64,000 nt of DNA, from positions 143,933 through 207,932 of the forward strand of contig CAYVEK010000001.1 of NCBI GenBank assembly GCA_964450605.1. The letters are read 5' to 3'. The notes below the pieces were generated by a model, which did not search any database, was not told the origin of the DNA, and saw only the letters and a program-made list of their open reading frames with translations. This DNA comes from an uncultured Candidatus Saccharibacteria bacterium (GTDB lineage Bacteria; Patescibacteriota; Minisyncoccia; Phycocordibacterales; CAIZLB01). This document shows, piece by piece, positions 12,887 through 57,035 of this stretch (positions are counted from its first letter, which is position 1; the number at the start of each line of letters is the position of its first letter). Both the position numbers and the translations under genes were made by a program.

Positions 12887-12969
12887 TGGGCAAGGAGGGA
12901 CTCGAACCCTCAACCCTTGCGGGACTAGTTCCTAAGACTAGCGCGTATACCAATTCCGCCACTTGCCCA
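12887..12969 (-). tRNA. tRNA-Leu (anticodon UAG), type II with long variable arm
   Basis: Manual fold: acceptor GGGCAAG/CTTGCCC, anticodon stem ctagt/actag with loop cTTAGga, variable hairpin tcccgcaaggg, T-arm gagggTTCGAGTccctc. Confidence 0.85.
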
Positions 12970-38036: not shown

Positions 38037-38108
38037 GGCCCTATCGTCTAACGGTTAGGACATCGGCTTCTCAAGCCGGTAATCGGGGTTCGATTCCCCG
38101 TAGGGTCA
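38037..38108 (+). tRNA. tRNA-Glu (anticodon CUC)
   Basis: Manual fold: acceptor ggcccta/tagggtc, anticodon stem tcggc/gccgg with loop ttCTCaa, T-arm cggggTTCGATTccccg. Confidence 0.8.
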
Positions 38109-38136
38109 CCTTCAACAGCTAGCACGAGTAGCATAC

Positions 38137-38165
38137 AAAAATAGCCCCTAGAAGGGCTATTTTTG
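38137..38165 (+). terminator. Rho-independent terminator after tRNA-Glu
   Basis: atagccc-ctagaa-gggctat followed by TTTT. Confidence 0.65.
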
Positions 38166-38172
38166 TCATCTG

Positions 38173-42700: not shown

Positions 42701-44662
42701 CGAAGCGCTTCTAGTTGAAAGAATTTCACTAATCTCAGCATCTTGCTTAATGATGTTAATATCTAGTTCCTTTAATTTCTTCCAGTCCTCTGGAAATACA
42801 TATTTGTCACCCTGAGCTAGTTCAGCTTTGTAGGATGACTTCATTTCGACGATCTCTTTGATTGAAGCTTTAACGAAGTTTAAATAATCAGAATCAAGTG
42901 ATTTTACCTTAGGGTAAGAATTATTAATTATATAATGACCATTTCCTCTTGAAAGTGATTCGATGGCTTCCTTTATTGCCTTTAGATTTTTAAAACTCGA
43001 TACATCAACTATTTTATCTAGTGCTAATAAACATTCTTTAGTTTCTTTCAAGGCTTCAATAACTCTTTGAGAAAAATCAACACTATAGTGTTTTCTGGCA
43101 ACACTCCTCCATATACTTTCTTCGGAAAATAGTCCGATCAAGTCATTTGTTTCTCTGATCAAAAACTCAGCTTGTTGATAATCTTCCAGTGTAAACTCTA
43201 GAGGACTTTTACCTTTCCAAGGCAACACAACTTCTTTTGATTTATCATTAACTTTTGCTAGTTCACCAAAAATCCAATAGATATTTTTATTTAATGGAGC
43301 GACTGATGTTGTAATCAAGGTACCATAAGATTTCAAAGAATCAATTTTCTTTTGTCTTAACTTTAATTTAGTTTCCAAATCAGCATCCTTATTCTTCTTC
43401 AACACAGAAACAACACTATCTCTTGAATCTAGGATATCTGAAGAAAAACTTTTCTTGTCATTCGTATAGTTAAAGAGTGGTAGACATAAATCTCCGACAC
43501 TTGCCCCCAAGCGTTTTCCGTCAATATCATAAGACAGTCTCTTGTAGACGACATCGAGTGCAACCTGTTTTTCACAAACAAATAACACCTTCTTCTTTCG
43601 AGCGAGCAGGTTTGATATAACATTCGCAATAGTCTGACTTTTTCCTGTTCCTGGCGGACCATGAATGACCATATGATCACCCGATACAATCTTCCTTATA
43701 GCTTGAATCTGACTTCCGTCAGCGTCTAAAATGGTGAAGTCTTCTTCCTTATTTAAAAAATCATCTGGGTTGAATTCTCCCTCATCAATTGTTACAAGAT
43801 CTGAATTATCTTGATGAAAAGAATCTCCACCACAAACACTATTGATAAAATCATGCTTTAGTATCTCATCTTGGTTCTTGTTGAGATCTTCATAGATTTG
43901 CTGTCCATGAAATGAAAACTGTCCGAGATAAATCTTTTCCGTAAAATCTACAGCGATTCCTTTTTCTTTAAAAATTTCTTTGATTTCTGAGAGAATTTTC
44001 CGCACTTCCGTGAAGGGCATTGCTAGAATTTCTTCTGCTGTTTCAGGTATATTTGGTAGGCGTAACTCAAAATTTTCTTTTATAAAGAGCAGAAGTACAG
44101 GATTTATTTGAGCCGGGTGCTGATTTGTGTCGATAGATAAAATTGTTGCCTTGTAGGGATCTTTCTCATTCTCCAAGGAAACAGGAACAAGCAATAGTGG
44201 AGCAATGTAATCTTGTTGTTTTACAGCATCTGTAGATCCACGCCCTACAGTTTTCTCCTTCCAGCAAACTTCTCCAAAAGCCATAAAAAGTGTGTGCAAT
44301 CCATGTTCGTCAAAGCTTTTCTTAGATTGTAATCTCATTCTCTCAAGAATAGAGATAAGTTTCTTGCCTTGAGGAGATGTTTTTGTGTCATATTCAGGAT
44401 CTCTGGCTTTCTTATCAGATTCTTCCGTTTCTGAAAAAAGATCATCTTGCTCTTCCTCTTTCAAAATTTTCTTGTGGTCAAAAATCGCATTCAACTCATC
44501 AAGACTTCCAAAATATGATGAACATTCTTCTAGGGAAATATTGAACTCAATCTTTGAAGCTTTCAGAGGATATTTCAAAAGACGATTTCTACGAGAAAAA
44601 TCAATAGCGGCTTGTTTATACCGCTTAAAGACTTCTAGAGTTTTTGCAGTTATTTTTGGCAT
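39698..44662 (-). CDS. Giant DUF4011 / SF1 (Upf1-like) helicase / C-terminal DUF559 (Vsr-like PD-(D/E)XK) nuclease protein; candidate defence helicase-nuclease
   Basis: N-terminal IDFSRRNRLLKYP (DUF4011 hallmark); Walker A IHGPPGTGKSQT; DEAS-like VIFDEASQM; SF1 motifs GDEHQLPPT, GDERDVIILS, VAVTRAK; C-terminal GIECDGAVYH...RDRMRQDILETRGWKIYRIW resembling the DUF559/Vsr endonuclease fold. Confidence 0.7.
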   Translation of the reverse strand: MPKITAKTLEVFKRYKQAAIDFSRRNRLLKYPLKASKIEFNISLEECSSYFGSLDELNAIFDHKKILKEEEQDDLFSETEESDKKARDPEYDTKTSPQGKKLISILERMRLQSKKSFDEHGLHTLFMAFGEVCWKEKTVGRGSTDAVKQQDYIAPLLLVPVSLENEKDPYKATILSIDTNQHPAQINPVLLLFIKENFELRLPNIPETAEEILAMPFTEVRKILSEIKEIFKEKGIAVDFTEKIYLGQFSFHGQQIYEDLNKNQDEILKHDFINSVCGGDSFHQDNSDLVTIDEGEFNPDDFLNKEEDFTILDADGSQIQAIRKIVSGDHMVIHGPPGTGKSQTIANVISNLLARKKKVLFVCEKQVALDVVYKRLSYDIDGKRLGASVGDLCLPLFNYTNDKKSFSSDILDSRDSVVSVLKKNKDADLETKLKLRQKKIDSLKSYGTLITTSVAPLNKNIYWIFGELAKVNDKSKEVVLPWKGKSPLEFTLEDYQQAEFLIRETNDLIGLFSEESIWRSVARKHYSVDFSQRVIEALKETKECLLALDKIVDVSSFKNLKAIKEAIESLSRGNGHYIINNSYPKVKSLDSDYLNFVKASIKEIVEMKSSYKAELAQGDKYVFPEDWKKLKELDINIIKQDAEISEILSTRSASIISTLSALKLEIDKTIPAEVLDFSVKDFQSKQLLFQIDSYLSPIIKAPRSQIYELRNTVKNLEVLYSQIQKSQDIIEKYGINFSEIESAKIIALEGIFLEKYKNIFRYFSSAYKADRKEVGSWCILRKPEKYSEIKDIIFSLAFRSKTQTKYDEEWKKIIDTFSLDQSVRHLSYEKINKGLESLIEYFEKNNIEYIEPVLQKYISDSKIHSILIQKTQKIEQITSNWDLLGDITSCNILEYPLAKLINLIDQTEEEVSEIKKSFTAVTPFISSQEYSPKDVASLNDEVEVLNRLNQIINAVKKSKINDYVESSAFDLLMEDETLNSFISYIESVNEFLAYLVPEFSDKSSAKLTSLLLDFQKNINDSNEAYLALSIVVEKLTGLFENEATRENILSESYKIMLTEINQMIGDSSGLERWVEYKKKKHALEEIGMEWFMSEIAKLSIPKGVDLACVYSWAFFNKWIENYSESNHELRDFTKDKYEKIIKEFKELEKDSMEINRLRVLHQQLPFLQMSQIPCEADKKLRHEANKKMRHLPIRTLVQRYASHIQLMKPCWMVSPLALSSYLEYGAVNFDVVIFDEASQMKIENALGAIARAKQAVVIGDEHQLPPTSFFGVSLDGDEDEDEDVNEETGFESILQKSISLLNGSEAYLKYHYRSSSEDLIAFSNYHIYQNRLITFPNPQNSRGVEFKFVNGVYDGSIITHKENGEKERHAGTRTNIIEAEEVAKLCIEHVQNNPNKTMGVIAFSKSQEEAIRTALEEKLSKEYPHLTEYLDETSEKKDSFFIKNLESVQGDERDVIILSVCYGPDKTGKVFNRFGPLTSAAGYRRLNVAVTRAKDKLICVTSMRFSDMSPSTSTRGAVLLQKYLEYAEKGSQVLEGNLIAGDTSNAEHDSDFEACVEKALTDIGYVVKRQVGVSGFKIDLAIVNPKNNTDYVLGIECDGAVYHSSKSARIRDRMRQDILETRGWKIYRIWSQHWYMHKQDVLNDIVQHVQRITG

Positions 44663-44730
44663 GAATTTACTTTACTTTATCAAATTTTGCCAATAAATAG
44701 TAGTTTAGTGTGTATTAGCGTCAATTTAGA

Positions 44731-46047
44731 TTAGATATAGATCTTCTTGTTTTTCAATCGTATGTTTGTATTCAAGCACCTCATAAATTCTCGCTTCTCA
44801 TCCATTGTCCCTTCGATTAGGATGAACTTGGCATAGTTCCGAATATCAATATCTTTCACCACCACAGTTGTCTTGGCACCAAGTAACATCTGCTCAAACT
44901 TCTTGAATCTTTGCACTTCAGCCGTGATCTTTTCTCTCATAGGCACTGTCTGTATCTCTAAATCGTCCATGAGGTCTTGTAGTTGGACAACAAGGTCTTC
45001 TTCATTGATGAATCCACATGGACAGTCTTGATCTCTCGTTCTTGTACATTTGTAGTATACATATCGGTTCATGTTACCGTTCTTCTGGTGCTTGAACTTT
45101 TCATCTGCCGTAATACCTGATCCACATAGTCCGCAAGTCATAATCTTGGTGAAGGCAAACTCCTTTTGTTGTGATCTTGGCTCGAGTATCTGACTTTTAA
45201 TCTTCTCCTGAACAAGATCAAACAATTCTTTCGTAATTATTGCTTTATGTGATCCGTTATACCAATTACCTGATTCTTTTGGAAACTCAAACCTGCCGTA
45301 GTAAAAGTGATTTTGGAATATTCTATAGAGATTTCCTAGACTTAGGTGGATATTATTCTCAGTCTTAAAGTTTATATCGTGCTTGAGCCATTGATATACC
45401 TTTCGTCCACTCCAACCATCGTAACCAATTTTCTCGAACATCTGCTTGATAATCGGTGCTCGTTCAGGATCTATGATGGATTCGCATTTTTGATCTATTC
45501 TTTTGTACTTTGTGTATCCAGTTGGTGGTTTACATGGCCACAAACCCATTTCAACTCTTGCCCGTAACCCTCGCTTCACGTTAATACTCTTATTGTCGTT
45601 CTCAAGTTTTGCTTGAGAACACAAGATCATCAGTAAGAATTTCTCATTAGGCGAATTAGAAAAAGTTTGTCCGTAGGTTTGTATATGAATTAACTTTCTT
45701 TGATCCATAAGATCAACAACGGCTCCGAGGTCTCCAGCGTTTCTTGAAAGTCTATCGGGTGCCCATGTGAGTATTCCGTTATATACACCTTTCGAAACCT
45801 CATTAAGTAGTTCTTTGAACACTGGTCGTTGTCCAGATTCTTTTGCAGAGTGAGATTCTCGTTTTATATCCACCACATTCAGTTTCAACCTTTCCGCAAT
45901 CGCTGTCATTTCTTTGATCTGAGAATCGATGGACAGGGCTTGCTGTTCATCTGATTCGGTTGATTTTCGGGCATATAGGCAATACTTAATCCTAGTTTCT
46001 GTTATTGATATATTGCTATGAATTTTGCCGATTACATTCGATTCCAT
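44731..46047 (-). CDS. Large serine recombinase (integrase)
   Basis: Catalytic YARKSTESDEQ...SIDSQ and DRLSRN motifs; recombinase domain; Zn-ribbon CGLCGS...C; 438 aa. Confidence 0.8.
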   Translation of the reverse strand: MESNVIGKIHSNISITETRIKYCLYARKSTESDEQQALSIDSQIKEMTAIAERLKLNVVDIKRESHSAKESGQRPVFKELLNEVSKGVYNGILTWAPDRLSRNAGDLGAVVDLMDQRKLIHIQTYGQTFSNSPNEKFLLMILCSQAKLENDNKSINVKRGLRARVEMGLWPCKPPTGYTKYKRIDQKCESIIDPERAPIIKQMFEKIGYDGWSGRKVYQWLKHDINFKTENNIHLSLGNLYRIFQNHFYYGRFEFPKESGNWYNGSHKAIITKELFDLVQEKIKSQILEPRSQQKEFAFTKIMTCGLCGSGITADEKFKHQKNGNMNRYVYYKCTRTRDQDCPCGFINEEDLVVQLQDLMDDLEIQTVPMREKITAEVQRFKKFEQMLLGAKTTVVVKDIDIRNYAKFILIEGTMDEKREFMRCLNTNIRLKNKKIYI

Positions 46048-46405
46048 ATATTAATTAATGACAGACCAGTCAGGGGTGCATAGCTATGCAAAATAGCCGA
46101 AACGTAGCATGGTCGTTTTGGCTATTAGCAAGGCTATATTTTGGCGTTATTATTAATCTAGAATAATAGATATGAAAATGCTATTATTCATTTACAACTA
46201 AATAAGGCGACCTAACCCTATGGAATAAACCCTATAGGTATGGTCATAAAGTCGATCAAGTGTAAAGAACCCGTCATGGGGTTTTGCTTGATCGCCGTAC
46301 TGGGAAACTGGTACGAAGGACTTCGGTCCTTACCCGTGGCGGGCTTTTTGTATACAACAAAATTCTCGCTAGGTTACAAATAATTTAAGCCGATCAAGCA
46401 AAATT

Positions 46406-47194
46406 ATGGCACTACTATCATTTATACAAAACATACTCACAAAACGTGAGGGTATTAAGCAATATCAGACTAATATCGTTGAATACCTTAAAGACGGAAA
46501 ACTGAGTCAGACAGAGAAAGATGATCTGAATAAAATAAAGCTCGAGTACGGTATCACAGATAAGGATCTACAAAATATTCATAAAATTCAGGCATCGGCA
46601 GTTTTTAATAATATTTCTTCAGATCAGCGCATAACAGAGGATGAAAAAGAATCTTTAAGTTTAATTCTGGATCACTTTGGTTTGTCTGTGAAAGACTTTG
46701 ATTTCAATCAAAAGAATTTTAATAAGTATTATGCGATGGCACTTATTGATAAAGGAATGCTTCCGACCGTTGATCCAGAGAACTTCAAAGTACCTGTCAT
46801 AATGAAAAGTGGAGAAATAATTCACTTTGGCAGTGAGGCGAACTTAGTTAAGGTAAAGAAAGTAATGGAAAAGATGTTCTATGGAGGTCTTTCTGGATCG
46901 ATAAAGATTATGAAAGGTATGCGGTATAGATGGGGTACTATAAAACCGACAATTGCACACAAAGAAGTTTCAGCTATTGAGGATTCAGGCGTACTTTACA
47001 TTACCAATCAAAGAATTGGTTTTATTGGGTCGCGTAAGCAATTTTCGGTTCTGTATAATAAGATATCAGGCTTTGAATTACGGGCTGATGGATTGTATAT
47101 ATTCAAAGATGGGAAAGAATTACCATATATTGTGACGCTTCAAGATTACGAGGTTCCGCTCTCAATAATTTCGTCGTTATTAAACGATAATTGA
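46406..47194 (+). CDS. Hypothetical protein (TerB-like N-terminus plus bacterial PH-like C-terminus)
   Basis: DGKLSQTEKDDLNKI (TerB-like); C-terminal YITNQRIGFIGSRKQFSVLYNKISGFEL resembling bPH_2; weak. Confidence 0.3.
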   Translation: MALLSFIQNILTKREGIKQYQTNIVEYLKDGKLSQTEKDDLNKIKLEYGITDKDLQNIHKIQASAVFNNISSDQRITEDEKESLSLILDHFGLSVKDFDFNQKNFNKYYAMALIDKGMLPTVDPENFKVPVIMKSGEIIHFGSEANLVKVKKVMEKMFYGGLSGSIKIMKGMRYRWGTIKPTIAHKEVSAIEDSGVLYITNQRIGFIGSRKQFSVLYNKISGFELRADGLYIFKDGKELPYIVTLQDYEVPLSIISSLLNDN

Positions 47195-47196
47195 CT

Positions 47197-48705
47197 TTAG
47201 AATATTTTATCTCTCAAACCGTAAGTGATAGGTCTGCATTCTTCATTTTGACTCAGCTCATTTCTAGGAAAAGGACTAGGTCTATCGTGGTTTAGTTTGG
47301 AGATGTAATTTATGGCAAGACTAAGTGCGTCTACGAGGTCATCATGAGACTCTGTTCCAAAACCAATGAGTTGAGTGATTAATTCTTCGTTGCCGTATTC
47401 AGAGAATAGTACTTTCCCAGACTGAATATATTGCGAAGCGAGCATGAGTCTTGTGGACTTGTCTAAACCACCTAAAGATACGCTTTCTGCAATAACACCT
47501 TCTGATTGCAACATCTGTGTCAGCCCTGATTGTGTACCTACACCCTCAACCAAAACCGTACATTTGGGATACTTGATCATGTTGATGTAAGTAGTTTTTA
47601 TCTTTTTGACTGTGTCGGGGAATATGAGTTTTTGATTTATTGGATTCGGCATGATACATATTTTTAAATCACTACCAAAACCAAATACCTGTGTCACTAC
47701 AATGCTTGTATAGTCTGATCTCGCATTTTGTGATACCGCCAAATCAACACTGATATATGTGGACTTATATGGATATTTCCTTTTTATATCTTCTAAGTTT
47801 TTATATCTTTTAATCCACTCGGGTTTTATGATCTGATCATCAGGGGGTAAGATGCGTAGTAGGTATTCCCGTTGCCAAGCAATCTCGTCTCCTACATGTT
47901 TTTTGTATACTTCTACATCATCTTTAGTCTTAAATTTCCCAGGCCAAAGGCATACACCGTCTTTTGTAATTAGCGGATATTCCTTAAATACACCCTCCAT
48001 TTCACCATTAGATATTTTTCTTTTTACTCGCATGAGTAGTGAATCGTCATGCAGGAGGTTTCCTAAGCATACGAATCTAGTATTTTCGTCACCAAGAGGT
48101 CTAATCTCACTCATAAACCATTGGTATGTTTTATCTCTACTTTCCTTGGTTTTACATGATTGGATATCTTCGATGTCATCACAAATAATCAGACTCGGTC
48201 GATGTTCAAGGTGTCTTGACCCTCTAATGCTTTGTTCAGAAGATATAGCAGTAATTCGTGCATTAAGCTTTGTAAACGTAAGCGAAAGAGCACCCCACTC
48301 ATCACTTTCTTCCTTAAATGGACCGAGATCGTTTTTTAATAAGCTATTTGTTTCTAGCTCGATTTTAATGTTTGCTAGGTGTTGTCGGGCCTGTATGCGT
48401 GTTTGTGAGACTATGAGAATATACTTTTCTTTTCTATATCCAAGAATTGACCATATTGGATAGGATGTAGTTAGAATTGTAGATTTAGCTGATCCTCTAA
48501 ATGCTATGAGATACATATTCTCAATACTGTCATTCTGTGTTAGTTCGAATATCTCTTTTTGGAAGTCTGCAGTTTCACTTTTGATGTAATGAGGAAAATA
48601 GAAATGGAAAAAAAGAATGTGACTTCGAGATGTAATTCCTATACGCACCTTAGGGTCTTTTGCCATAAGGGCGAAATCGTCATTATTAATCATTGCTTTC
48701 TTCAA
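47197..48705 (-). CDS. Phage terminase large subunit-like protein
   Basis: N-terminal ATPase with FRGSAKST Walker-A-like motif; C-terminal RNaseH-like nuclease with SHDDLVDALS; ~500 aa. Confidence 0.6.
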   Translation of the reverse strand: MKKAMINNDDFALMAKDPKVRIGITSRSHILFFHFYFPHYIKSETADFQKEIFELTQNDSIENMYLIAFRGSAKSTILTTSYPIWSILGYRKEKYILIVSQTRIQARQHLANIKIELETNSLLKNDLGPFKEESDEWGALSLTFTKLNARITAISSEQSIRGSRHLEHRPSLIICDDIEDIQSCKTKESRDKTYQWFMSEIRPLGDENTRFVCLGNLLHDDSLLMRVKRKISNGEMEGVFKEYPLITKDGVCLWPGKFKTKDDVEVYKKHVGDEIAWQREYLLRILPPDDQIIKPEWIKRYKNLEDIKRKYPYKSTYISVDLAVSQNARSDYTSIVVTQVFGFGSDLKICIMPNPINQKLIFPDTVKKIKTTYINMIKYPKCTVLVEGVGTQSGLTQMLQSEGVIAESVSLGGLDKSTRLMLASQYIQSGKVLFSEYGNEELITQLIGFGTESHDDLVDALSLAINYISKLNHDRPSPFPRNELSQNEECRPITYGLRDKIF

Positions 48706-49084
48706 TTTTATCTGTGAATAATTTTGATGAGTTTAAAACTCTTTCGATTGCTTCTGCTTGTTCAGGGGTAAGTTCCTGACCCTGATGTTTGGTAGTCAGC
48801 TCAATCCTGTTTCTATACTTTGGACTTCTGCTAGAAAGCCAAAACCTAAGTGCAGGGAAGCTTTTTTCTTTTATGAGATTTAATAGTTGTGTTTCACTCA
48901 TGTCACTTATGAATTCCTCTCCCTCAATCATTGCCGAATGCATTTGAGCCTCAAATTCTTTATCCTCGTGTTTCCAGCGATAGATTGTGTTTCGAGATAA
49001 ATTTGATTGCTCACAAGCTACTTGAACTATTGGCACTTTCTTGAGACTTTCAAGAAATTTAGTTTTGTTTCTATTTTTCTTCAT
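48686..49084 (-). CDS. Small HTH protein, terminase small subunit-like
   Basis: HTH VACEQSNLSRNTIYRWK; overlaps the terminase large subunit start (operon). Confidence 0.4.
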   Translation of the reverse strand: MKKNRNKTKFLESLKKVPIVQVACEQSNLSRNTIYRWKHEDKEFEAQMHSAMIEGEEFISDMSETQLLNLIKEKSFPALRFWLSSRSPKYRNRIELTTKHQGQELTPEQAEAIERVLNSSKLFTDKIEESND

Positions 49085-50342
49085 GGTGAATAACTTGAGG
49101 ATTAATTCCGGTTAGTCTGATAAAACGTTTGATAATAAGGTCACAAAATACAGGCTCTTTTTCACAACCAAAGACTTTTCGACCTAACTGTTCACCTGCC
49201 AAGAGAGTACTACCAGATCCTAAGAAACTATCTAAAATAATGTCATTAGGCTTAGTACAGCGTTTGATAGCTTTTTCATGTAAACTTACAGGTTTGCTTG
49301 TTGCATGTTCCATGTCCTTGCCACTCAGTCTCTTTGTGAGCCATAGATCTATTTGATCATGTAGGTTGTTTCCTGTGGTCATGTCTCTGTTTACAACCTC
49401 GTTATTGGTATTTATGTTGTGAGTTAAATATGGTTTATTTCTCACTCCGTAGACGCAAGGTTCATAACATTTGTTGAATGCAACTCCTGGGGTAGGGTTC
49501 TGGGAGTTCTTTATCCATAGGCAAACACGCTTGTTCTCTATACCGAGTTTTCTATAGAGTTCCTGAATAACTCCTATATATACTTGATCACACCAGTAAA
49601 ATACATGAATATCTTCATGAGAGACTGCAAGTGCGGCTTCCATACTCTTACACAGAAAATCTTTATACTCATCAAATCCTCGACTATCACACACAGCGCC
49701 TCCATAAGATCTTTTACCTCCAATACCTCCATTGTAATCGATGTTGATGTTGTAGACTGGGTCAGAATAGATCATTGATACTCTTTCATTACCGCAGAGT
49801 TTCTGGACAACCTTAGGGTCAGTTGAATCTCCACAGATAATCCTGTGCTTTCCTAAAATTATAATATCTCCAGTTTTTGTTTTAGGTTCTTTGATTTTTT
49901 CTAGCTCTTTAGTAACATCAAATTCATCGTCTTTAGCCTCTAATTCTTTATCCCAAAATTCTGATAGCTCTATTGATTCAAAACCTGATTCCAGAAGCAT
50001 TCCGACATCAAAGGATTTGAGTTTGTCGGTGTCCCAAGTTCCACCCAATTTATTGCTTGATATTAGGTATTGTTCATATTCTTGATCAGTTAGTCTTCTG
50101 TTCGGTACTCGTACATCTATCATTTCTTCGCCTCGGTTTAATGCGAGCAACACCTTTAGTCTCTGATGTCCTGCAACAATTTTCCCGTCTGTGTCTACAA
50201 CAGGTATTTCAACGAGATTAAACTTTTTAAAACTCTTCGTTAGGTCAGCGAGTTGTTTCTGGTTGATTTTTCTTGGATTTTTGTCGTACGGTAAAAGTTC
50301 TGATACTTTTCTTTTTTCATTGTGCCATTCTAATTTTTCCAT
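49071..50342 (-). CDS. ParB-like nuclease domain fused to DNA methyltransferase (N6-adenine/N4-cytosine, beta-class)
   Basis: ParB N-domain PYDKNPRKI...AGHQRLKVL; catalytic SDPVYN (DPPY); AdoMet motif I ILDSFLGSGST. The ORF could extend to 50426 (alternative start). Confidence 0.7.
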   Translation of the reverse strand: MEKLEWHNEKRKVSELLPYDKNPRKINQKQLADLTKSFKKFNLVEIPVVDTDGKIVAGHQRLKVLLALNRGEEMIDVRVPNRRLTDQEYEQYLISSNKLGGTWDTDKLKSFDVGMLLESGFESIELSEFWDKELEAKDDEFDVTKELEKIKEPKTKTGDIIILGKHRIICGDSTDPKVVQKLCGNERVSMIYSDPVYNINIDYNGGIGGKRSYGGAVCDSRGFDEYKDFLCKSMEAALAVSHEDIHVFYWCDQVYIGVIQELYRKLGIENKRVCLWIKNSQNPTPGVAFNKCYEPCVYGVRNKPYLTHNINTNNEVVNRDMTTGNNLHDQIDLWLTKRLSGKDMEHATSKPVSLHEKAIKRCTKPNDIILDSFLGSGSTLLAGEQLGRKVFGCEKEPVFCDLIIKRFIRLTGINPQVIHHEEK

Positions 50343-50689
50343 ATATTTTTTATGATTATTGTTTATATATAGAGAACACAAAACACCATACGAGATGTAT
50401 GGTGTTTGCTTGTACACGCAATACATCGAGATGATAAATAACCAGTCTTGTTTTATGAGACTAGTAACTTATGACCTAGATTTATTGCAGGTTGTGTTTA
50501 TAAATCAATCTTCACTTTCATTGGATGTTGTCCTTATGAATGTGAAGACATTGATCGAAAATCTGTTCTTTTTGTTTCGGATATTGTCCATTCGACAAAA
50601 AGGGTGGCAAAGATTGATCTGAGGAATTGTGTAGTTGTAGAGTTCTCCTGTTGGTATTGTAGGTTGCCAGCATATTTAAAGTCAAGCAC

Positions 50690-50720
50690 ATAAATGCTCT
50701 CATGGTGTAAAAATATATGA
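50690..50720. promoter_or_regulatory. Perfect 10-bp inverted repeat (operator-like) in the divergent intergenic region
   Basis: aatgtgacac-gtcg-gtgtcacatt; followed by direct repeats tgtcactttt x2. Confidence 0.4.
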
Positions 50721-50817
50721 AATGTGACACGTCGGTGTCACATTATGTGTGTTTTTATGTCACTTTTGTCACTTTTTAACTCTGGATATAGGGTTATTAG
50801 GCTGTTATACTTACTCT

Positions 50818-51225
50818 ATGAAAACTATTACCATCTGCGGATCAATGAAATTAAAGGAAAAGATGTATGAAATAGAAGGACAGCTCAGAGACCTAGGCTT
50901 TGGAGTTTTACTACCAAATATAACTAAAACTAAAAATTATGAAAATATGACTGAAATAGAACAGTACGCATTTAAAAACAGAATGATTGTTGACCATTTC
51001 AACAAGATCAAAGAAGGTGATGCTGTCTTAATTCTCAATGATCGACTCAAAGACATAGACAATTATATCGGTGCAAATTCATTTCTTGAAATAGGTTTTG
51101 CATTCTCTTTTGGTAAGAAAATATTTATACTTAACAATCTGCCACAACAACCCAATACGGTTGAGATTGGTGGTATGATGCCCATATGTTTAAATGGTGA
51201 TTTAAATAAAATTAACATCAATTAG
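50818..51225 (+). CDS. Nucleoside 2-deoxyribosyltransferase-like (flavodoxin-like fold) protein
   Basis: MKTITICGSM...GDAVLILN...FLEIGFAFSFGKKIFIL pattern typical of the NDT-like / DUF4406 family; moderate. Confidence 0.4.
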   Translation: MKTITICGSMKLKEKMYEIEGQLRDLGFGVLLPNITKTKNYENMTEIEQYAFKNRMIVDHFNKIKEGDAVLILNDRLKDIDNYIGANSFLEIGFAFSFGKKIFILNNLPQQPNTVEIGGMMPICLNGDLNKININ

Positions 51226-51229
51226 TCAT

Positions 51230-51661
51230 ATGGAGATCAAGAAAACCGGAACATCGAGCGATGGCAAACAAATGCATTATTCTGTAGGTATAATAGTGGA
51301 ATGCAATGGAAAACATCTACTCTTAGATAGAATTAACCCTCCTTTTGGCTTTGCATGCCCAGCAGGTCACATTGATGAAGATGAGGATCCGAAAGAAGCA
51401 TGTCTTCGTGAGCTCAGGGAGGAAACTGGTATTGTCCTAAATGATATTGAATTTATTTGCGAAGAAGAAATCCCTTGGAACTATTGTAAATCAGCTGAGG
51501 TACATTATTGGTATTTGTATAAAGCAAAAGTGGAGTCTGAAAATGTTGTTTTGGAAAAAGATGGCGCCAGAAGTATCGGGTGGTATTCTCCTGAAGAAAT
51601 AAAAGCGCTTAATTTAGAAAAAGTGTGGGAATACTGGTTCAAAAAACTTAAATTATTTTAA
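51230..51661 (+). CDS. NUDIX hydrolase
   Basis: Nudix box G-HIDEDEDPKEACLRELREETGI (GX5EX7REUXEEXGU). Confidence 0.8.
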   Translation: MEIKKTGTSSDGKQMHYSVGIIVECNGKHLLLDRINPPFGFACPAGHIDEDEDPKEACLRELREETGIVLNDIEFICEEEIPWNYCKSAEVHYWYLYKAKVESENVVLEKDGARSIGWYSPEEIKALNLEKVWEYWFKKLKLF

Positions 51662-51669
51662 TTAGTGGC

Positions 51670-52137
51670 ATGAATAAATTAATAATACATAAAATTCAAT
51701 CGAATTCAGAAAAAGATTCTGATTATTCTGAATACTTGTCTAGTATAAAAAAGACGTTCAAGGAAATACCTTGGATTAACAAGATCGAAGGACTTTATTC
51801 TGAAATCTATTTTCTGTACTTAGATTCAAAATTTGTAGCCGGTGTAACTTTGTTTGAAAAGTGCCCTGAAGATATTAAGATTACAGAAAAAGCAGATAAC
51901 TTGTTTGGTAACTTTGTATTTGCATCTTGTTTGTACGTAAAACCAGAATACAGGAATAAAGGTTACGGATATAAACTACTTAAAAAGGCTATATTAGACA
52001 CTGTGTCTAGAGGTGCTAAATTTATAGGTATTGTTGATAATACTAATCAAAAACTTATTGATTCCTATAAGAAAAACTTTTTAGTAAAGATTGTTGCTAT
52101 AAATTCTAAGATATCTTTTATTGAATTTATAAAATAG
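51670..52137 (+). CDS. GNAT family N-acetyltransferase
   Basis: Motif A LYVKPEYRNKGYGYKLLKKAI. Confidence 0.65.
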   Translation: MNKLIIHKIQSNSEKDSDYSEYLSSIKKTFKEIPWINKIEGLYSEIYFLYLDSKFVAGVTLFEKCPEDIKITEKADNLFGNFVFASCLYVKPEYRNKGYGYKLLKKAILDTVSRGAKFIGIVDNTNQKLIDSYKKNFLVKIVAINSKISFIEFIK

Positions 52138-52271
52138 TAAGAGGACTACGCACGAGAAGGGTCGTTGTGCTATCATAAAAACATTAAAAATAACCTTACC
52201 CAGCAACGAACCAAAAGGTTCTATCTGCTGAAGGCTCACACATATCGTGAGCGGAGCGAACAATTAACAGC

Positions 52272-52353
52272 GTGACCCTAAGCGATGTGTCTGCACACAT
52301 CGCGTCAGGGAATCGAAAAGCTTTTCTATGTTTTGAGAATCCCTTGGATTCGA
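52272..52353 (+). repeat. Structured direct repeat, copy 1 (conserved scaffold A-V-B-C)
   Basis: gtgaccctaagcg / 16-nt variable palindromic segment atgtgtctgcacacat / cgcgtcagggaat / cgaaaagcttttctatgttttgagaatcccttggattcga. Blocks A and C are near-identical to 55967-56095. Confidence 0.7.
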
Positions 52354-52681
52354 CAAAACAAGAAAAGATGTACAGGTCCTGTAAGGATCGATTCCTGTGT
52401 AGGGTTACCAAATTAGATTTCTCAGTAATATTTTCTTGATGTAGCTTATAAAGTAAGTATGATTCATAGGTTCCAAACTTTTCCTCGTCAAAATTAGTTT
52501 TGATAGAAAAACTTGATTTTGTACCGTTTCTGTCCGATTTGTCCGGTTTTGACCCCGATTTTTGTGCAATTTGTGCATTTTCAACCTTTAAGATGAGGAT
52601 GCAGTGGTATAGTTCACTAACCTTAAAATTAGATATTTTGTCTACGTCGTCAGAGAGGGTCTTTTGTGATAATCTTATACC

Positions 52682-54610
52682 ATGAATATAAGCGAAGTCC
52701 ATATCAAAAACTATCGATCAGTAAAGGACGAAAAGATATACTTTAGCCCAAAGTGTCGAATTTTGGTTGGTATCAATGAGTCAGGAAAGACAAATATTTT
52801 GAATGCTCTGGCTTTAATTGACCAATCAAGAAAAACAACTATCGCAGATAAACGGGAGCCTCTTAGAGGCGAGGATGAAATTGATGAGTCTTTTGTGAGA
52901 TTCTTTTTCACTCTTGATGAGGAAGAAAAGAAGAAAGTCGTTGAAGATATGAAGTCATCAGTTCTTTCAAAATCGATTGAAGAGCCGGTGATTAATTTGC
53001 TTGGAAAAGACTATTCTTTTGAAAGTTTTTTACTTCATAAAAGATATTTCTATGAAGTGAACATTCTCAAAACATCAAAACAGCCAATGCATTTTCTTAT
53101 CAATTCCGATAAACCAAAGGTTTCTAATAAATGGAAGAAGATTAGCGAATCTTGCCCTGAAGATTTGATGGTTGATGTCGATGGGATGAAGGTTGCGGTA
53201 AAGAGCTATAAATTTGTTCATGCTAGTGATTACCCTGAAATCCCATCTGAACATTTGGCAGAGATCGGTCATGAAGAATTAAATAAGTTTGTAGGTGGGA
53301 AGGTTACAACGCATATGGGTACCAATCTACATAAGGTTATTTACTGGGATTATGAAGAATCGAAGATTCTACCATCAAGAGTTCCTCTTCAGGATTTTAC
53401 TAATGATCCGGAAATTTGTATTCCTCTTAAACGTATGTTTGAACTTAAGGGTATTGAAGATATAAAAGGTGCAATTGAGAACGCACAAAAGGCCGGGGGT
53501 AAATCTTTAGATAACCTACTCGGAAGAATAGCCGATCAGACTTCAAAGTATTTCCATGATACCTGGAAAGAATATGACAATATAAATTTTTCTCTGAAAA
53601 CTAACGGTGCCGATATAGAAACATCGATCCAGGATAAATCGAATAGTTTTGATTTTACACAAAGAAGTGACGGTTTCAAAAGATTTGCTACTTTCTTGCT
53701 CATTGTTTCCGCAAGAGCAGAGACGGATGCATTAAAAAACAACCTTATCTTGATCGATGAACCGGAGATAGGTCTTCACCCAAAAGGAGCAAGGTATTTA
53801 CGAGATGAACTTATCAAGATCTCTAAAGAGAATTATGTTGTATTCTCTACACATTCAATATTTATGATTGATAATAAACTCATAGATAGACACTTGTTGG
53901 TTAAGAAAGAAGATGAAGTTACCTCAACTAAAAATGCTGATCCTTCAAATCTTCTGGAGGAAGAGGTGTTGTATCAAGCGTTGGGGCATTCTATTTATTC
54001 TCACTTACATGAGAAAAATATTGTTTTTGAAGGTTGGCACGACAAACAATTGTTTAATTTAGCAATTGATTATTCAAGAGCGCCTGCGGGGTATGCTGGC
54101 CTTAAACAACTCTTTGAAGGTGTCGGTTTAACCTACGCACAAGGAGTTAGTGATATTAAGTACATAACTCCGCTTTTTGCTTCAGGTAATCGAAAATGCT
54201 TAATACTTACTGACAACGATGATCCTGCGAAGAATGCACAGAAGGATTTCAAAAATACTCACGGTTTTGGTAACTGGAAGCGATATCCTGAGGTCGAATC
54301 AACACTCACAGCTTTTACGGGTGAAGATTTTATAAAACACACCGCTTTTGTTCCAATACTTGAAAAAATAAAATCAGACAACGGATACGCTGTTGATGTA
54401 CCGGATCTCTCTACTGCAAGTGCGGGCGGTAAAGGTAAGGTGTATGTTATAAAGCAATGGTTTATTGCAAATGGGGTGACTGGAGATGACTTAAGGGCAG
54501 CGATGAAGAATTTTAAAGATACACTTTTTACAACAATTTTGCATTCCGACATTGAAGCAGACTATTTTACATACCTTCAACAGGTCGGTGGTTTGATTGC
54601 GGGTATGTAA
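52682..54610 (+). CDS. OLD-family (overcoming lysogenization defect) ATPase-TOPRIM nuclease
   Basis: N-terminal ABC-type ATPase GINESGKTNILNAL (Walker A), LILIDEPEIGLHP (Walker B / D-loop), STHS (H-loop); C-terminal TOPRIM with IVFEGWHD (catalytic Glu) and LILTDNDD (DxD). Confidence 0.75.
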   Translation: MNISEVHIKNYRSVKDEKIYFSPKCRILVGINESGKTNILNALALIDQSRKTTIADKREPLRGEDEIDESFVRFFFTLDEEEKKKVVEDMKSSVLSKSIEEPVINLLGKDYSFESFLLHKRYFYEVNILKTSKQPMHFLINSDKPKVSNKWKKISESCPEDLMVDVDGMKVAVKSYKFVHASDYPEIPSEHLAEIGHEELNKFVGGKVTTHMGTNLHKVIYWDYEESKILPSRVPLQDFTNDPEICIPLKRMFELKGIEDIKGAIENAQKAGGKSLDNLLGRIADQTSKYFHDTWKEYDNINFSLKTNGADIETSIQDKSNSFDFTQRSDGFKRFATFLLIVSARAETDALKNNLILIDEPEIGLHPKGARYLRDELIKISKENYVVFSTHSIFMIDNKLIDRHLLVKKEDEVTSTKNADPSNLLEEEVLYQALGHSIYSHLHEKNIVFEGWHDKQLFNLAIDYSRAPAGYAGLKQLFEGVGLTYAQGVSDIKYITPLFASGNRKCLILTDNDDPAKNAQKDFKNTHGFGNWKRYPEVESTLTAFTGEDFIKHTAFVPILEKIKSDNGYAVDVPDLSTASAGGKGKVYVIKQWFIANGVTGDDLRAAMKNFKDTLFTTILHSDIEADYFTYLQQVGGLIAGM

Positions 54611-54633
54611 CTGTTCATTATTTATATAAACCT

Positions 54634-54930
54634 ATGCAAGAAATCTTTATTCATGTCTGTGGTGTGGTTTTAGGAGCCATTGTTCTCAGATTGCTTGGTT
54701 TACATAAAAAAGTTGTTGTTCACACCAACCACGTTCAAGTTAGTATAATTTGGAAAGTATTAAAAAGTCTAGGAAAGTTTTGTTTTTTCTATGGCTTATT
54801 TGTTTTTCACATAAATTTGCTGGTGACAGGGGTTGAATCACCAAATGTCGGCATTGGTGTAACCATTTTGACCTTAGGTTTCTTTGCGTGGGTGATCGGC
54901 TCCATTACTTTTTTTATTAAAGGAAACTAA
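54634..54930 (+). CDS. Small integral membrane protein (3 predicted TM helices), co-operonic with the OLD nuclease
   Basis: Hydrophobic helices VCGVVLGAIVLRLLGL, FCFFYGLFVFHINLLVTGV, IGVTILTLGFFAWVIGSITFFI; 23-bp gap from the OLD gene. Confidence 0.5.
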   Translation: MQEIFIHVCGVVLGAIVLRLLGLHKKVVVHTNHVQVSIIWKVLKSLGKFCFFYGLFVFHINLLVTGVESPNVGIGVTILTLGFFAWVIGSITFFIKGN

Positions 54931-54932
54931 GG

Positions 54933-55781
54933 ATGAATCAGATTGAAGAATCTATTTTTTCAATTCAAATAGGCTTATTAAACAGGGCTCAGAATCTACT
55001 TGAAGATAGGATAAGTCAATTAGAGGTTTTTGAAAGATCGAAAGAGTTCACTTCAAATGACGCTTCTGAGAAAGCCGCGTGCGTTGGAGTTTTCAAGATT
55101 AGATCTGCCAAGTTTTTTAGAGATACTCTTTCATATTTAATATCTGAATCAGCAAGAACCGAGCCAAAGGTACATTTTTTTATGTTGCCAAATATAAGAG
55201 CACTAACGAATGTACATGCTAACTTTTTACATCTTCTAGAGTCCGGTAATGAAGATAAACAGGCGTTGATTTGTATTGCATACCAGCTACTTACAATGAA
55301 AGATCTACAAAACGACGTTGAATACGCAAAAGTATTGGATATGAATAAAAATTTCCTTGCAACCCAATCGGTTGTCTTTCCAGCCTCACCTGCAGACTTT
55401 AGTTACAAATGGATGCAAAAGCAGAAGCTGACCTTGGGTAGAATGGATCAATTACTTGAGTCTGATGTGGTTAAAAAATATTCTTCAAATGTTGTAGCTG
55501 TTTTTATGCCGAAAGAACAGTATCGCATATATTCTACTCTTTCAGAATTTTTACATGGAAATCCATATTATTATGATGACAATCCTCACAACGAGAGATT
55601 TTGGATTGTTGCGTTTTCAATATCCATTACTGCTTTCCTGATTGAAATTATTGATACTTATTTTTTAAATAAGATAAACCCTAGAGACTTCAGGGTGTGG
55701 CTACTTGATGTAAAAAGACAGCGGGGTGATTTTTCAAATCTTTGGAAGTCGAAAGCGCATACAGGTAAGATTTCGACTTAA
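54933..55781 (+). CDS. Hypothetical protein with C-terminal TM helix, third gene of the OLD operon
   Basis: 2-bp gap from the upstream gene; TM helix FWIVAFSISITAFLIEIIDTYFL near the C-terminus; no known motif. Confidence 0.45.
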   Translation: MNQIEESIFSIQIGLLNRAQNLLEDRISQLEVFERSKEFTSNDASEKAACVGVFKIRSAKFFRDTLSYLISESARTEPKVHFFMLPNIRALTNVHANFLHLLESGNEDKQALICIAYQLLTMKDLQNDVEYAKVLDMNKNFLATQSVVFPASPADFSYKWMQKQKLTLGRMDQLLESDVVKKYSSNVVAVFMPKEQYRIYSTLSEFLHGNPYYYDDNPHNERFWIVAFSISITAFLIEIIDTYFLNKINPRDFRVWLLDVKRQRGDFSNLWKSKAHTGKIST

Positions 55782-55928
55782 TAGTGAGTTCTGATATAAA
55801 GTGGTAGTTTATTTATTTTAGACAAAGCCTTTTGAGACTTCTACCTGTAAAGATAAAGCAAGCATTCTCCACTGGCTAAGCTTATAAACTAAAGAGTTCC
55901 AATTCTGTTCCACTTGGGTCACAGTCAC

Positions 55929-55963
55929 AAAAAAGAGCTCCGGCGTCAGCTGGAGCTTTTTTG
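55929..55963 (+). terminator. Rho-independent terminator (bidirectional-like)
   Basis: aaaaaa-gagctcc-ggcgtcagc-tggagctt-tttt. Confidence 0.6.
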
Positions 55964-55966
55964 TCT

Positions 55967-56095
55967 GTGACCCTAAGCGGGCAAACAGCTTTACTCGCGT
56001 CTGGGTGAACCTTCGAAGAAGGTGTAGGGCCAGAGCACGACAGTGCGAGGTATGCCGAAAAGCTTTTCTATGTTTTGAGAATCTTTTGGATTCGA
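55967..56095 (+). repeat. Structured direct repeat, copy 2 (same scaffold with a different 16-nt variable segment and a 46-nt insertion)
   Basis: gtgaccctaagcg / ggcaaacagctttact / cgcgtctgggtgaa / 46-nt insert / cgaaaagcttttctatgttttgagaatcttttggattcga. Confidence 0.7.
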
Positions 56096-56231
56096 GATAT
56101 TTTTTCCAAGCCAAATTCAAATATTAAAAATGAAGTCATGTGGCAGTATAATCCATGGGGGAGAGTCGACGGTATCAAAGGTCCTGTAGATTTGAATGTG
56201 TTAAAATAAAAACATCAGTATTAATATACCT

Positions 56232-57032: not shown

Positions 57033-57035
57033 TAT

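What the first reader, a model, noticed from the sequence alone, without database searches (positions are those of the whole stretch)
52272..52353. Repeat element has a conserved scaffold with an equal-length (16-nt) variable segment, i.e. guide-like architecture
Alignment of the two copies gives conserved block A (gtgaccctaagcg), then a 16-nt segment that differs completely (atgtgtctgcacacat versus ggcaaacagctttact), then conserved block B (cgcgtcagggaat / cgcgtctgggtgaa), then conserved block C (~40 nt containing the 12-nt perfect palindrome gaaaagcttttc and a gaatcc...ggattc hairpin). Copy 2 also carries a 46-nt insertion. A fixed-length variable window inside a conserved structured scaffold recalls guide or specificity RNAs (crRNA-like, omega/reRNA-like, retron-like) or attC-like recombination sites, not a simple duplication. 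The spurious ORFs 52196-52702 and 55818-56120 both contain the peptide FSKHRKAF purely because they read through block C. This argues the element is non-coding.
Basis: seen in the sequence. Interest (0 to 1): 0.75.

Follow-up and report, generated by a model that had tools for sequence, protein, structure and literature searches.

The report
tRNA-tail-copying hairpin DNA element family
The two repeats belong to a very widespread, apparently uncatalogued family of about 140-base hairpin elements that sit just after tRNA genes in ultra-small (CPR) bacteria. Their stems copy the tail of the neighbouring tRNA gene, and the "variable 16 bases" are the stem and loop of a side hairpin, not a guide sequence.

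Summary
Copy 1 runs 52272-52410. Copy 2 (55967 to about 56200) is a decayed copy. A third intact copy lies on the minus strand at 12701-12838, just after tRNA-Leu.

More than 170 relatives were found in CPR genomes and metagenomes. Most lie 50-100 nt after a tRNA gene, across 17 isotypes.

Every member has the same plan:
- X'a and X'b, the complement of the last ~20 nt of the neighbouring tRNA gene.
- An optional 9-bp side hairpin between X'a and X'b.
- A conserved three-way cap (P3, P4).
- X2, a direct copy of the tRNA 3' end.

It is self-complementary throughout the family, so the guide reading is not supported.

Covariation is very strong. G.U pairs, however, are no commoner than A.C, whereas tRNA stems in the same loci show 98 G.U against 3 A.C. 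X' also complements the tRNA's own trailer. Arrays of tRNA-element-cargo-element are common.

Best reading, at moderate confidence: a DNA-level, single-strand-folding integrative or recombination unit, analogous to integron attC or the CTX phage attP. Its recombinase is unknown. No Rfam family and no paper matched it.

The parts
52272..52410 (+). Copy 1, an intact element. X'a 52272-52280; linker A 52281; side hairpin 52282-52303; GT 52304-52305; X'b 52306-52314; junction GAAAAG 52315-52320; P3 52321-52367; junction ATGTACA 52368-52374; P4 52375-52389; X2 52390-52408, followed by CA.
   Evidence: CM R1 scores 75.9 bits at 52303-52396. The single-strand DNA fold gives exactly this architecture, z = -8.8. 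Homology to L003-L007 and L099.
52285..52300 (+). It is the distal 6 bp plus the CTGC loop of the 9-bp side hairpin.
52216..52240 (+). Degenerate tRNA-Glu 3'-end remnant (AGGTTCTATCTGCTGAAGGCTCACA) upstream of copy 1. Read as the right junction of the 14-kb island.
   Evidence: Aligns with the 3' end of the tRNA-Glu gene in L099. Coordinates.
55967..56095 (+). Copy 2, decayed. X'a 55967-55975; side hairpin 55977-55998 with one G.T and one C.A; X'b from 56001; 46-nt insertion 56010-56055; 5' half of the cap 56056-56095.
   Evidence: CM R1 gives only 11 bits.
56180..56191 (+). Probable remnant of copy 2's P4 (GGTCCTGTAGAT, against GGTCCTGTAAGGAT in copy 1). It is separated from the cap's 5' half by about 85 nt of unrelated sequence.
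   Evidence: The homology is an inference.
55894..55962 (+). tRNA 3'-end remnant (55894-55924, ending GGGTCACAG) followed by a terminator-like hairpin (55929-55962). GGGTCACAG and CTGTGACCC form an inverted repeat around the hairpin.
   Evidence: Inverted repeat I20..
12701..12838 (-). Copy 3, an intact element about 45 nt downstream of tRNA-Leu(tag). Its 3' end, AGTCCCTCCTTGCCCACAAAC (12701-12721), is identical to the tRNA-Leu 3' end plus trailer (12882-12902).
   Evidence: CM R1 scores 70.7 bits. DNA fold z = -11.2, with X' paired to the tRNA 3' end.
12886..12968 (-). tRNA-Leu(tag), the last gene of the Ala-Lys-Leu cluster and the partner of copy 3.
38037..38110 (+). tRNA-Glu(ctc). This is the gene whose 3' end copies 1 and 2 imitate. 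It is now 14 kb from copy 1.
   Evidence: In L099 the homologous element lies about 25 nt after tRNA-Glu (75 nt to the cap start), and the sequence after its X2 equals the sequence after 38110 here.
38111..52215 (.). Island between tRNA-Glu and copy 1. It carries DUF2779, a DUF4011 helicase-nuclease, a large serine recombinase (44731-46047, minus strand), LOOT RNA, a terminase, a methylase, NUDIX and GNAT.
52682..55781 (+). Cargo between copy 1 and copy 2: an OLD-family ATPase-nuclease (52682-54610) and two ORFs of unknown function.

Best explanation
What it is (shown). Copies 1 and 2, and a third copy at 12701-12838, belong to a large family of about 140-nt elements attached to the 3' side of tRNA genes in CPR/Patescibacteria-type genomes.

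In tRNA orientation the order is:
1. The tRNA gene, ending in X1 (T-loop to discriminator).
2. A short trailer.
3. A terminator-like hairpin.
4. X'a, the complement of the acceptor 3' strand and trailer.
5. Linker A, a 9-bp side hairpin, linker GT (this hairpin is optional).
6. X'b, the complement of the T-stem and T-loop.
7. A conserved three-way cap: junction YGAAR, a long hairpin P3 of variable sequence, junction R-W-A-C-N-G, and a 5-bp hairpin P4 with loop TGTAA.
8. X2, a direct copy of the tRNA 3' end.

How it most likely works (inferred). The pairing is selected in DNA, not RNA. The stretch from the trailer to X2 is a small, almost fully self-complementary, rod-like unit. As a single strand it folds so that X' and X rebuild a duplex copy of the tRNA gene's 3' end. 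Recombination between this folded site and the X segment of a tRNA gene, with the crossover inside X, inserts the unit with or without cargo genes. The tRNA stays intact and the X'-cap-X module ends up at the far end of the insert. This is how the CTX phage attP(+) hairpin and integron attC sites behave.

Repeated events would give arrays of tRNA-element-cargo-element. X2 also offers a second landing site for islands that target the tRNA 3' end, such as the islands here that carry a large serine recombinase. In the window, islands have pushed the tRNA-Glu elements 14 kb and 18 kb away from the gene, and copy 2 has decayed. The enzyme that acts on the element is not identified.
For: Family and architecture:
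- A 22-mer of the cap hit 5 CPR genomes.
- A degenerate pattern hit at least 120 metagenome contigs and 1 viral contig.
- CM R1 found 178 matches in 0.82 Mb.

Link to tRNA genes:
- 81 of 133 tRNA transcription-unit ends have an element within 300 nt, across 17 isotypes.
- The 17-25 nt after P4 are identical to the 3' end of that tRNA.

Structure:
- 86-88% of cells are paired.
- Covariation score is 0.495 and 0.570, against 0.154 and 0.162 in shuffles (0 of 500 reach the observed value). Slid controls stay at or below 0.2.
- 23 of 24 pairs change on both sides.

DNA-level rather than RNA-level pairing:
- P4 plus side hairpin show G.U 17 against A.C 10 in 1308 cells. X'/X stems show G.T 31 against A.C 38.
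- Acceptor and T stems of 139 tRNAs from the same loci show G.U 98 against A.C 3 in 1668 cells.

Signs of an integrated unit:
- X' complements X1 plus the trailer after X1 better than its own X2 in 51 cases against 5, out of 72.
- The 5' extension of X'a complements the trailer after X1 rather than the trailer after X2 in 15 cases against 2, out of 24.
- The tRNA end, hairpin and X' fold as one long palindrome, z = -11.2.

Mobility and cassette behaviour:
- Tandem units of 154-185 nt, and arrays carrying small cargo genes: glyoxalase, NYN, DUF6326, NUDIX, an ACP-like protein, OLD, and many with no known family.
- Often no X remnant lies between cargo and X'.
- Compared with L099, the window's tRNA-Glu site lacks exactly one unit.
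- In L108 a junction inside X joins the element to unrelated upstream DNA.
- The same cap subtype occurs in Saccharibacteria and Paceibacteria and next to different tRNAs.
Against: - No recombinase, HUH or other enzyme gene is consistently nearby. Neighbours are housekeeping genes.
- Most units carry no cargo, and about 60% or more of tRNA units have one. That looks more like a housekeeping feature than a mobile element.
- The cap has conserved unpaired motifs, G.A pairs and a T-loop-like pentaloop, which is typical of folded RNAs.
- Type-B members would have two tandem G.U pairs in P2 if read as RNA.
- Orthologous elements at the same tRNA in different genomes show compensatory change. This implies long-term selection in place, which is not expected of a rarely used integration scar.
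- A 150-190-nt single-stranded circle has no known production route here.
- No excised form or empty-versus-filled pair within one population was observed.
- Most family members were collected with a pattern that fixes three motifs, and the model was seeded from them.
Confidence: 0.5

Rival explanations
1. A structured non-coding RNA made from the tRNA 3' flank. It could be a tRNA-linked small RNA. It could also be a cis-acting switch in which X' pairs either with the tRNA's own 3' half (X1), blocking maturation of read-through transcripts, or with X2, closing the three-way cap that binds a protein or ligand.
For: - Same strand as, and immediately after, highly expressed tRNA genes. About 60% or more of tRNA units have one.
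- Very strong covariation, with conserved junction and loop nucleotides and a three-way junction.
- G.A is enriched over C.T (43 against 1 at the base of P4), so one strand is the folding strand.
- An intrinsic-terminator-like hairpin usually follows X2.
- X':X1 and X':X2 are real alternative pairings.
- Elements at the same tRNA are conserved between genomes.
Against: - G.U is not favoured over A.C, unlike tRNA stems in the same loci.
- A terminator-like hairpin with a T-run sits between the tRNA and X', and there is no room for a separate promoter. The promoter scan was uninformative.
- The stem extends into the trailer beyond the discriminator, so it is not a tRNA-like processing substrate.
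- Encoded CCA after X2 appears in only a few cases: one by the script's own category, and about 8 of 47 by my frame-corrected reading of the same table. That is a weak enrichment at best.
- No Rfam family matches.
Confidence: 0.3
2. A base-pairing guide: an RNA (bridge-RNA, crRNA or omega-RNA-like) or a DNA strand in which a variable segment programmes a nuclease or recombinase. The reader's version places the guide in the 16-nt window. A modified version places it in X'a and X'b, which are complementary to the tRNA gene.
For: - X'a and X'b are a roughly 20-nt complement of the local tRNA gene 3' end, and they change with the tRNA.
- The elements lie downstream of their 'target', as homing RNA-guided transposons do.
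Against: - The 16-nt window is a self-paired hairpin stem. It is absent in about a quarter of members and has no meaningful matches elsewhere.
- No cas, IscB, TnpB, IS110 or reverse transcriptase gene lies near any copy.
- X' is itself paired in the predicted folds.
- The wobble pattern argues against RNA.
Confidence: 0.08
3. Passive debris. On this reading the repeats are only scars of successive island integrations at tRNA-Glu (duplicated att sites and arm sequences), or a decaying local duplication with no function of their own.
For: - tRNA-Glu(ctc) is a hotspot for islands that carry a large serine recombinase, both here and in Paceibacterota.
- tRNA 3' remnants lie upstream of copies 1 and 2.
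- Copy 2 is clearly decaying.
Against: - Scars would not keep four helices through hundreds of compensatory changes.
- Scars would not recur with the same cap behind 17 different tRNA isotypes.
- The Paceibacterota tRNA-Glu islands carry no such element, so the element is not part of those islands' att sites.
Confidence: 0.05

Closest known systems
CTX phage attP(+), a folded single-stranded attachment site used by XerCD, and other integrative elements that exploit Xer
   Same: - Two inverted copies of the chromosomal target sequence, separated by roughly 90 nt, fold into a hairpin whose stem imitates the double-stranded target.
- After integration the inverted copy, the spacer and a hybrid site lie at the distal end of the insert.
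- Tandem arrays arise.
   Different: - The target here is the 3' end of a tRNA gene and varies from copy to copy. It is not dif.
- The spacer is a conserved three-way structure.
- Units can be as small as about 150-190 nt with no genes.
- No role for Xer, and no phage, has been shown.
Integron attC sites and cassette arrays
   Same: - An imperfect palindrome at the 3' end of each cassette.
- Structure is conserved more than sequence.
- Strand-specific folding with an extra-helical feature on one strand.
- Arrays of small, mostly unknown cargo genes next to a fixed primary site.
- Typical cassette functions (GNAT, NUDIX, glyoxalase).
   Different: - No RYYYAAC / GTTRRRY core sites. The stems are tRNA sequences.
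- No intI gene next to the arrays.
- The apical part is conserved rather than variable.
- The primary site is a tRNA gene.
tRNA-gene att sites of integrases (T-loop sublocation; from general knowledge of the Williams 2002 classification)
   Same: The direct repeat runs from the T-loop to the 3' end of the tRNA, sometimes into the trailer. The tRNA is regenerated. Islands accumulate in tandem.
   Different: Ordinary att sites have no inverted copy of the core and no covarying structured cap. They also come with an integrase gene.
REP/REPIN and other palindromic miniature elements (PATEs of IS200/IS605), which are mobilised as single-stranded DNA
   Same: Small, gene-less, hairpin-forming extragenic elements with compensatory changes. 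They are present in many copies and often sit next to terminators. The enzyme is encoded elsewhere.
   Different: Those elements have fixed sequences and short target motifs. They do not copy about 20 nt of a neighbouring gene. No RAYT or TnpA was seen here.
tRNA-like RNAs (tmRNA tRNA-like domain, bacterial Y RNA YrlA, mascRNA)
   Same: The acceptor and T-stem sequences of a tRNA are rebuilt as a helix, and the side hairpin leaves where the D and anticodon arms would.
   Different: - The helix is fully Watson-Crick and continues into the trailer.
- There is no T-loop and no consistent CCA.
- ARAGORN and Rfam do not recognise it.
- The wobble pattern is not RNA-like.

Membership tests
CRISPR crRNA / repeat-spacer array | Regularly spaced identical repeats separated by unique spacers, with cas genes nearby | tested here: not met
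   Only two copies, 3.7 kb apart. The 'spacer' is a self-paired stem. Pfam and PADLOC find no cas genes.
omega-RNA / reRNA of IscB/TnpB, or IS110 bridge RNA | An adjacent IscB, TnpB or IS110-type recombinase gene; a single-stranded guide at the end or in internal loops of the scaffold | tested here: not met
   No such ORF within 5 kb in the window or across 125 loci. No Rfam HEARO or IS605-related hit at E <= 10. The variable 16 nt are base-paired.
Retron msr-msd | An adjacent reverse transcriptase gene; a1/a2 terminal inverted repeats around msr and msd | tested here: not met
   No reverse transcriptase domain in neighbouring ORFs. Terminal inverted repeats do exist, but they are tRNA sequence.
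Integron attC | R''(RYYYAAC)-L''...L'-R'(GTTRRRY) core sites | tested here: not met
   The stem strands are the complement and copy of tRNA 3' ends, for example GTGACCCTA / TAGGGTTAC. No GTTRRRY at the 3' boundary.
Integron attC | An intI tyrosine integrase and attI next to the array | tested here: not met
   Neighbour clustering found no shared recombinase, and arrays start at tRNA genes.
Integron attC | Imperfect palindrome at the end of each cassette, folding in one strand, with structure conserved over sequence | tested here: met
CTX-type folded single-stranded attP | Two inverted copies of the chromosomal target flanking a spacer of about 90 nt, forming a target-mimicking stem | tested here: met
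   X' and X2 flank the 75-85-nt cap and are the complement and copy of the tRNA 3' end.
CTX-type folded single-stranded attP | Recombination by a host recombinase on single-stranded DNA | not testable with these tools
   Needs biochemistry or detection of excised and integrated forms.
tRNA / tmRNA / tRNA-like RNA | Cloverleaf or tRNA-like domain with T-loop, single-stranded NCCA end, recognised by tRNA and tmRNA models | tested here: not met
   ARAGORN and the Rfam tRNA and tmRNA models find nothing at the elements. The stem pairs through the discriminator into the trailer. CCA is present only in a minority.
Any Rfam 15 family | A covariance-model match | tested here: not met
   No hit at the gathering threshold in the window. 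None at E <= 10 or E <= 5 over the elements.

The most novel reading that the evidence does not exclude
CPR bacteria may possess a gene-capture platform anchored on tRNA genes. Small rod-shaped single-stranded units, with or without cargo genes, would carry a stem that reproduces the 3' end of a chosen tRNA gene. An unidentified recombinase that recognises the conserved three-way cap and side hairpin would insert and excise them there. Target choice would be programmed by the sequence of the stem (X'/X), which can be re-specified to any tRNA. This would be an integron-like system with a programmable primary site.
Probability: 0.3. Interest if true: 0.9.

Novelty: new variant of a known kind. 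Interest (0 to 1): 0.78.

Why it matters
If the reading is right, this is an abundant genome feature of a huge bacterial radiation that I could not find described. It occupies the flank of most tRNA genes examined, organises small accessory and defence gene cassettes, and marks where islands land.

It would add a third example, after integron attC and CTX-type sites, of recombination sites that work as folded single strands. It would be one whose target specificity is written in a replaceable stem.

Practically, these elements:
- generate spurious ORFs and partial-tRNA signals in annotations;
- offer a marker for cassette arrays in CPR genomes;
- would matter just as much if they prove to be RNAs, because they would then be a tRNA-coupled RNA class missing from Rfam.

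Tried and rejected
- **Rfam:** searched at gathering and permissive thresholds. Nothing at the elements.
- **BLAST of copy 1 against plasmids and phages:** no match.
- **Block A plus gap plus CGCGTC in viral contigs:** two chance hits in coding genes.
- **Exact-protein look-ups of window genes:** not on record.
- **Protospacer test of the two 16-mers:** 3 and 42 exact viral hits, all inside unrelated genes, which is chance level. No extra copies in the window.
- **Conserved partner protein:** all-against-all clustering of 1370 neighbouring ORFs gave only housekeeping families and a spurious antisense ORF.
- **tRNA-primer or retro-origin idea:** X' does not complement CCA, and CCA after X2 is rare (and direct reading).
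- **tRNA-like processing substrate:** the stem runs into the trailer.
- **Hammerhead-type three-way junction:** the order of junction strands does not fit. This was judged by eye only.
- **Promoter and terminator scan:** uninformative, and it missed the obvious hairpin at 55929-55962.
- **Literature:** six full-text searches, including the motif sequences themselves, found no description.
- **OLD-gene homologues:** examined to test cassette mobility. They also lie downstream of tRNA-Glu(ctc) with large serine recombinases, but without the element.

Full report
**1. The observation**

The two copies exist as described. GTGACCCTAAGCG occurs at 52272 and 55967. Each is followed by an unrelated 16-mer, then CGCGTC. 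Copy 2 then has a 46-nt insertion. Both share an identical 28-mer that begins CGAAAAGCTTTTC, and no shuffle reproduced it. Both antisense ORFs contain FSKHRKAF. Rfam, ARAGORN, and plasmid and phage BLAST recognise nothing there.

**2. Relatives, and the true extent of the element**

A 22-mer from block C hit five genomes, all CPR: three Saccharibacteria, one Paceibacteria and one unnamed. It runs through CAAAACAAGAAAAG-GTRTAC, a 5-bp hairpin with loop TGTAA, and a sequence identical to the 3' end of a nearby tRNA.

Copy 1 therefore runs 52272-52410. One of the 142 pattern instances was a third copy in the window, at 12701-12838 on the minus strand. It lies about 45 nt after tRNA-Leu(tag).

A covariance model, R1, scores copy 1 at 75.9 bits, copy 3 at 70.7 bits and copy 2 at only 11 bits. 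It found 178 matches in 0.82 Mb of fetched loci, including about 36 divergent ones that the pattern had missed.

**3. Anatomy**

In tRNA orientation every full member reads:
- X'a
- linker A, a 9-bp side hairpin, linker GT
- X'b
- junction YGAAR
- P3, a long irregular hairpin of variable sequence
- junction R-W-AC-N-G
- P4, 5 bp with loop TGTAA
- X2

X2 copies the last 17-25 nt of the upstream tRNA gene, from the T-loop onward. X'b and X'a are its Watson-Crick complement.

On a 105-sequence alignment, 86% of cells pair. The covariation score is 0.495 against 0.154 in shuffles (0 of 500 reach it), and slid controls stay at or below 0.2. On the model-based alignment of 124 matches the score is 0.570 against 0.162, and 23 of 24 pairs change on both sides. 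That alignment is fitted to the model, so it leans towards the structure. Copy 1 folds into exactly this shape with DNA parameters, z = -8.8.

**4. The 16-nt window**

In about 75 of 105 non-redundant members a 9-bp hairpin ends 9-11 nt before the cap. Its stems are almost any sequence, yet 734 of 783 cells are Watson-Crick. Its loops are conserved (CTGC 22 times, TGGGA 22 times, CGGGG 5 times). The whole insert between X'a and X'b is modally 25-26 nt. About a quarter of members lack it and have a continuous stem.

Copy 1 reads GCGATGTGT-CTGC-ACACATCGC. Its equal length follows from the fixed stem. It is self-paired, and its sequences match viral DNA only by chance. The guide reading fails.

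The part that tracks a target is X'/X.

**5. Link to tRNA genes**

Of 133 tRNA transcription-unit ends with enough flanking sequence, 81 have an element within 300 nt on the same strand. These cover 17 isotypes, and the covariance model adds more. The loci were chosen because they contain an element, so only the additional tRNAs in them are unbiased. In the window, both tRNA units have one: Leu directly, and Glu displaced.

Clustering of neighbouring proteins gave only housekeeping genes such as TypA, RbfA, MiaA, PrfB and ParB.

**6. RNA or DNA?**

The stems show no tolerance of wobble pairs:
- P4 plus side hairpin: G.U 17 against A.C 10 in 1308 cells.
- X'/X: G.T 31 against A.C 38.
- Acceptor and T stems of 139 tRNAs from the same loci: G.U 98 against A.C 3 in 1668 cells.

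G.A greatly exceeds C.T (43 against 1 at the base of P4), so the tRNA-sense strand is the one that folds.

X' complements the tRNA's own 3' end better than the element's X2 in 51 of 72 cases, against 5 the other way. Its 5' extension complements the trailer that follows the tRNA rather than the trailer that follows X2, in 15 cases against 2. So the tRNA end, trailer, terminator-like hairpin, trailer' and X' form one long palindrome, z = -11.2 for copy 3. The stretch from the trailer to X2 is a nearly fully self-complementary rod.

This asymmetry is what is expected if that stretch entered as a unit by a crossover inside X.

**7. Behaviour**

- Tandem units of 154-185 nt occur in L057, L092, L095 and L116.
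- Arrays of tRNA-element-cargo-element are common.
- Cargo is small and mostly without known domains. Where domains are found they include glyoxalase, NYN, DUF6326, NUDIX, an ACP-like protein, GNAT and OLD.
- Often no X remnant lies between cargo and X'.
- In L099, the closest relative of copy 1 (77% identity over 200 nt), the element starts about 25 nt after tRNA-Glu(ctc) (75 nt to the cap). The sequence after its X2 equals the sequence immediately after the window's tRNA-Glu. The window site therefore lacks exactly one unit.
- L108 has a junction inside X.
- L049 and L061 share flanks but carry the tRNA-Ser plus element module in opposite orientation, with different cargo.
- The same cap subtype occurs in two CPR classes and behind different tRNAs.

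**8. The window's history (inference)**

tRNA-Glu(ctc) at 38037-38110 is a landing site for islands. A 14-kb island now separates it from copy 1, which is preceded by a hybrid tRNA remnant at 52216-52240. That island carries a large serine recombinase, a terminase, a methylase and a helicase-nuclease.

An OLD-nuclease cassette at 52682-55781 separates copy 1 from copy 2. Copy 2 is also preceded by a tRNA remnant and a terminator-like hairpin.

OLD homologues in Paceibacterota also lie downstream of tRNA-Glu(ctc) with large serine recombinases, but without the element. So the element is not part of those islands' machinery. The T-stem versions implied by copies 1 and 2 (CAGGG and CTGGG) differ from the resident tRNA's CGGGG. 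This suggests the copies arrived from other lineages or have drifted.

**9. Verdict**

Shown:
- A large, structured, tRNA-anchored element family that Rfam and six literature searches do not contain.
- The 16-nt window is a hairpin stem.

Inferred, confidence about 0.5: a DNA-level unit that folds as a single strand and is integrative, analogous to CTX attP(+) and integron attC, with an unknown enzyme.

The main rival, at about 0.3, is an RNA that switches X' between the tRNA's 3' half and X2.

Caveats:
- Pattern-based ascertainment fixed three motifs.
- The CPR assignment rests on five genome titles and one protein name.
- There are no expression or excision data.

Noticed in passing
window 46209-46331 (+): A LOOT RNA (Rfam RF03000, 77.3 bits against a gathering score of 46.4) lies inside the 14-kb island. 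It is 160 nt from the start of the large serine recombinase gene (44731-46047, minus strand), in divergent orientation.
   Followed up: no
window 38173-50426: The island downstream of tRNA-Glu(ctc) carries DUF2779, a 1654-aa DUF4011/AAA_11/AAA_12/MTES_1575 helicase-nuclease, a large serine recombinase, a terminase large subunit, an HTH protein and an N6/N4 DNA methylase. It looks like a prophage remnant or defence island.
   Followed up: partly
window 52682-55781; loci L131-L135: The OLD-family ATPase-nuclease cassette has 46%-identical homologues in Paceibacterota. These also sit downstream of tRNA-Glu(ctc), flanked by one or two large serine recombinases. One 518-aa recombinase gene is present in L132-L134 and absent in L131.
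   Followed up: partly
L049:6860-8460 versus L061:10580-11460: Two contigs share flanks at 92-93% identity. They carry the tRNA-Ser(gga) plus element module in opposite orientations and with different content between the flanks.
   Followed up: partly
L011:3384-3464 (+) and L011:3941-4021 (-): Two elements on opposite strands share about 90%-identical 5' halves (side hairpin, an extra hairpin, X'b and the tip of P3). They have different P3 bases, P4 and X. This is a mosaic with a breakpoint near the base of P3.
   Followed up: no
L011, L017, L063, L088, L090, L101 (3' side of the elements): A 14-nt insert, AAGYGTACTCRCGG, splits X right after TCGAT in six elements that sit behind different tRNAs. 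It contains a second GTAC motif like the P3/P4 junction.
   Followed up: no
window 34218-35150 (-): A DprA gene (DNA processing protein A, 2e-58) sits next to topoisomerase I. Its family handles single-stranded DNA taken up during natural transformation (general knowledge, not tested here), which bears on the single-strand hypothesis.
   Followed up: no
L008:10380-10660 (viral contig IMGVR_UViG_3300000970_000154): Downstream of the tRNA-Ser(gct) element lie a second tRNA-Ser and further tRNA 3' fragments, one with an encoded CCA (GTTCGAATCCCATACCCTCTACCA). This is another crowded tRNA-tail region, and the contig also encodes a serine recombinase related to the window's.
   Followed up: no
window 56232-57779 (+): Immediately after copy 2 come a Pol-beta-type nucleotidyltransferase (266 aa) and a 247-aa protein with no confident domain. 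This may be an MNT/HEPN-like pair.
   Followed up: no
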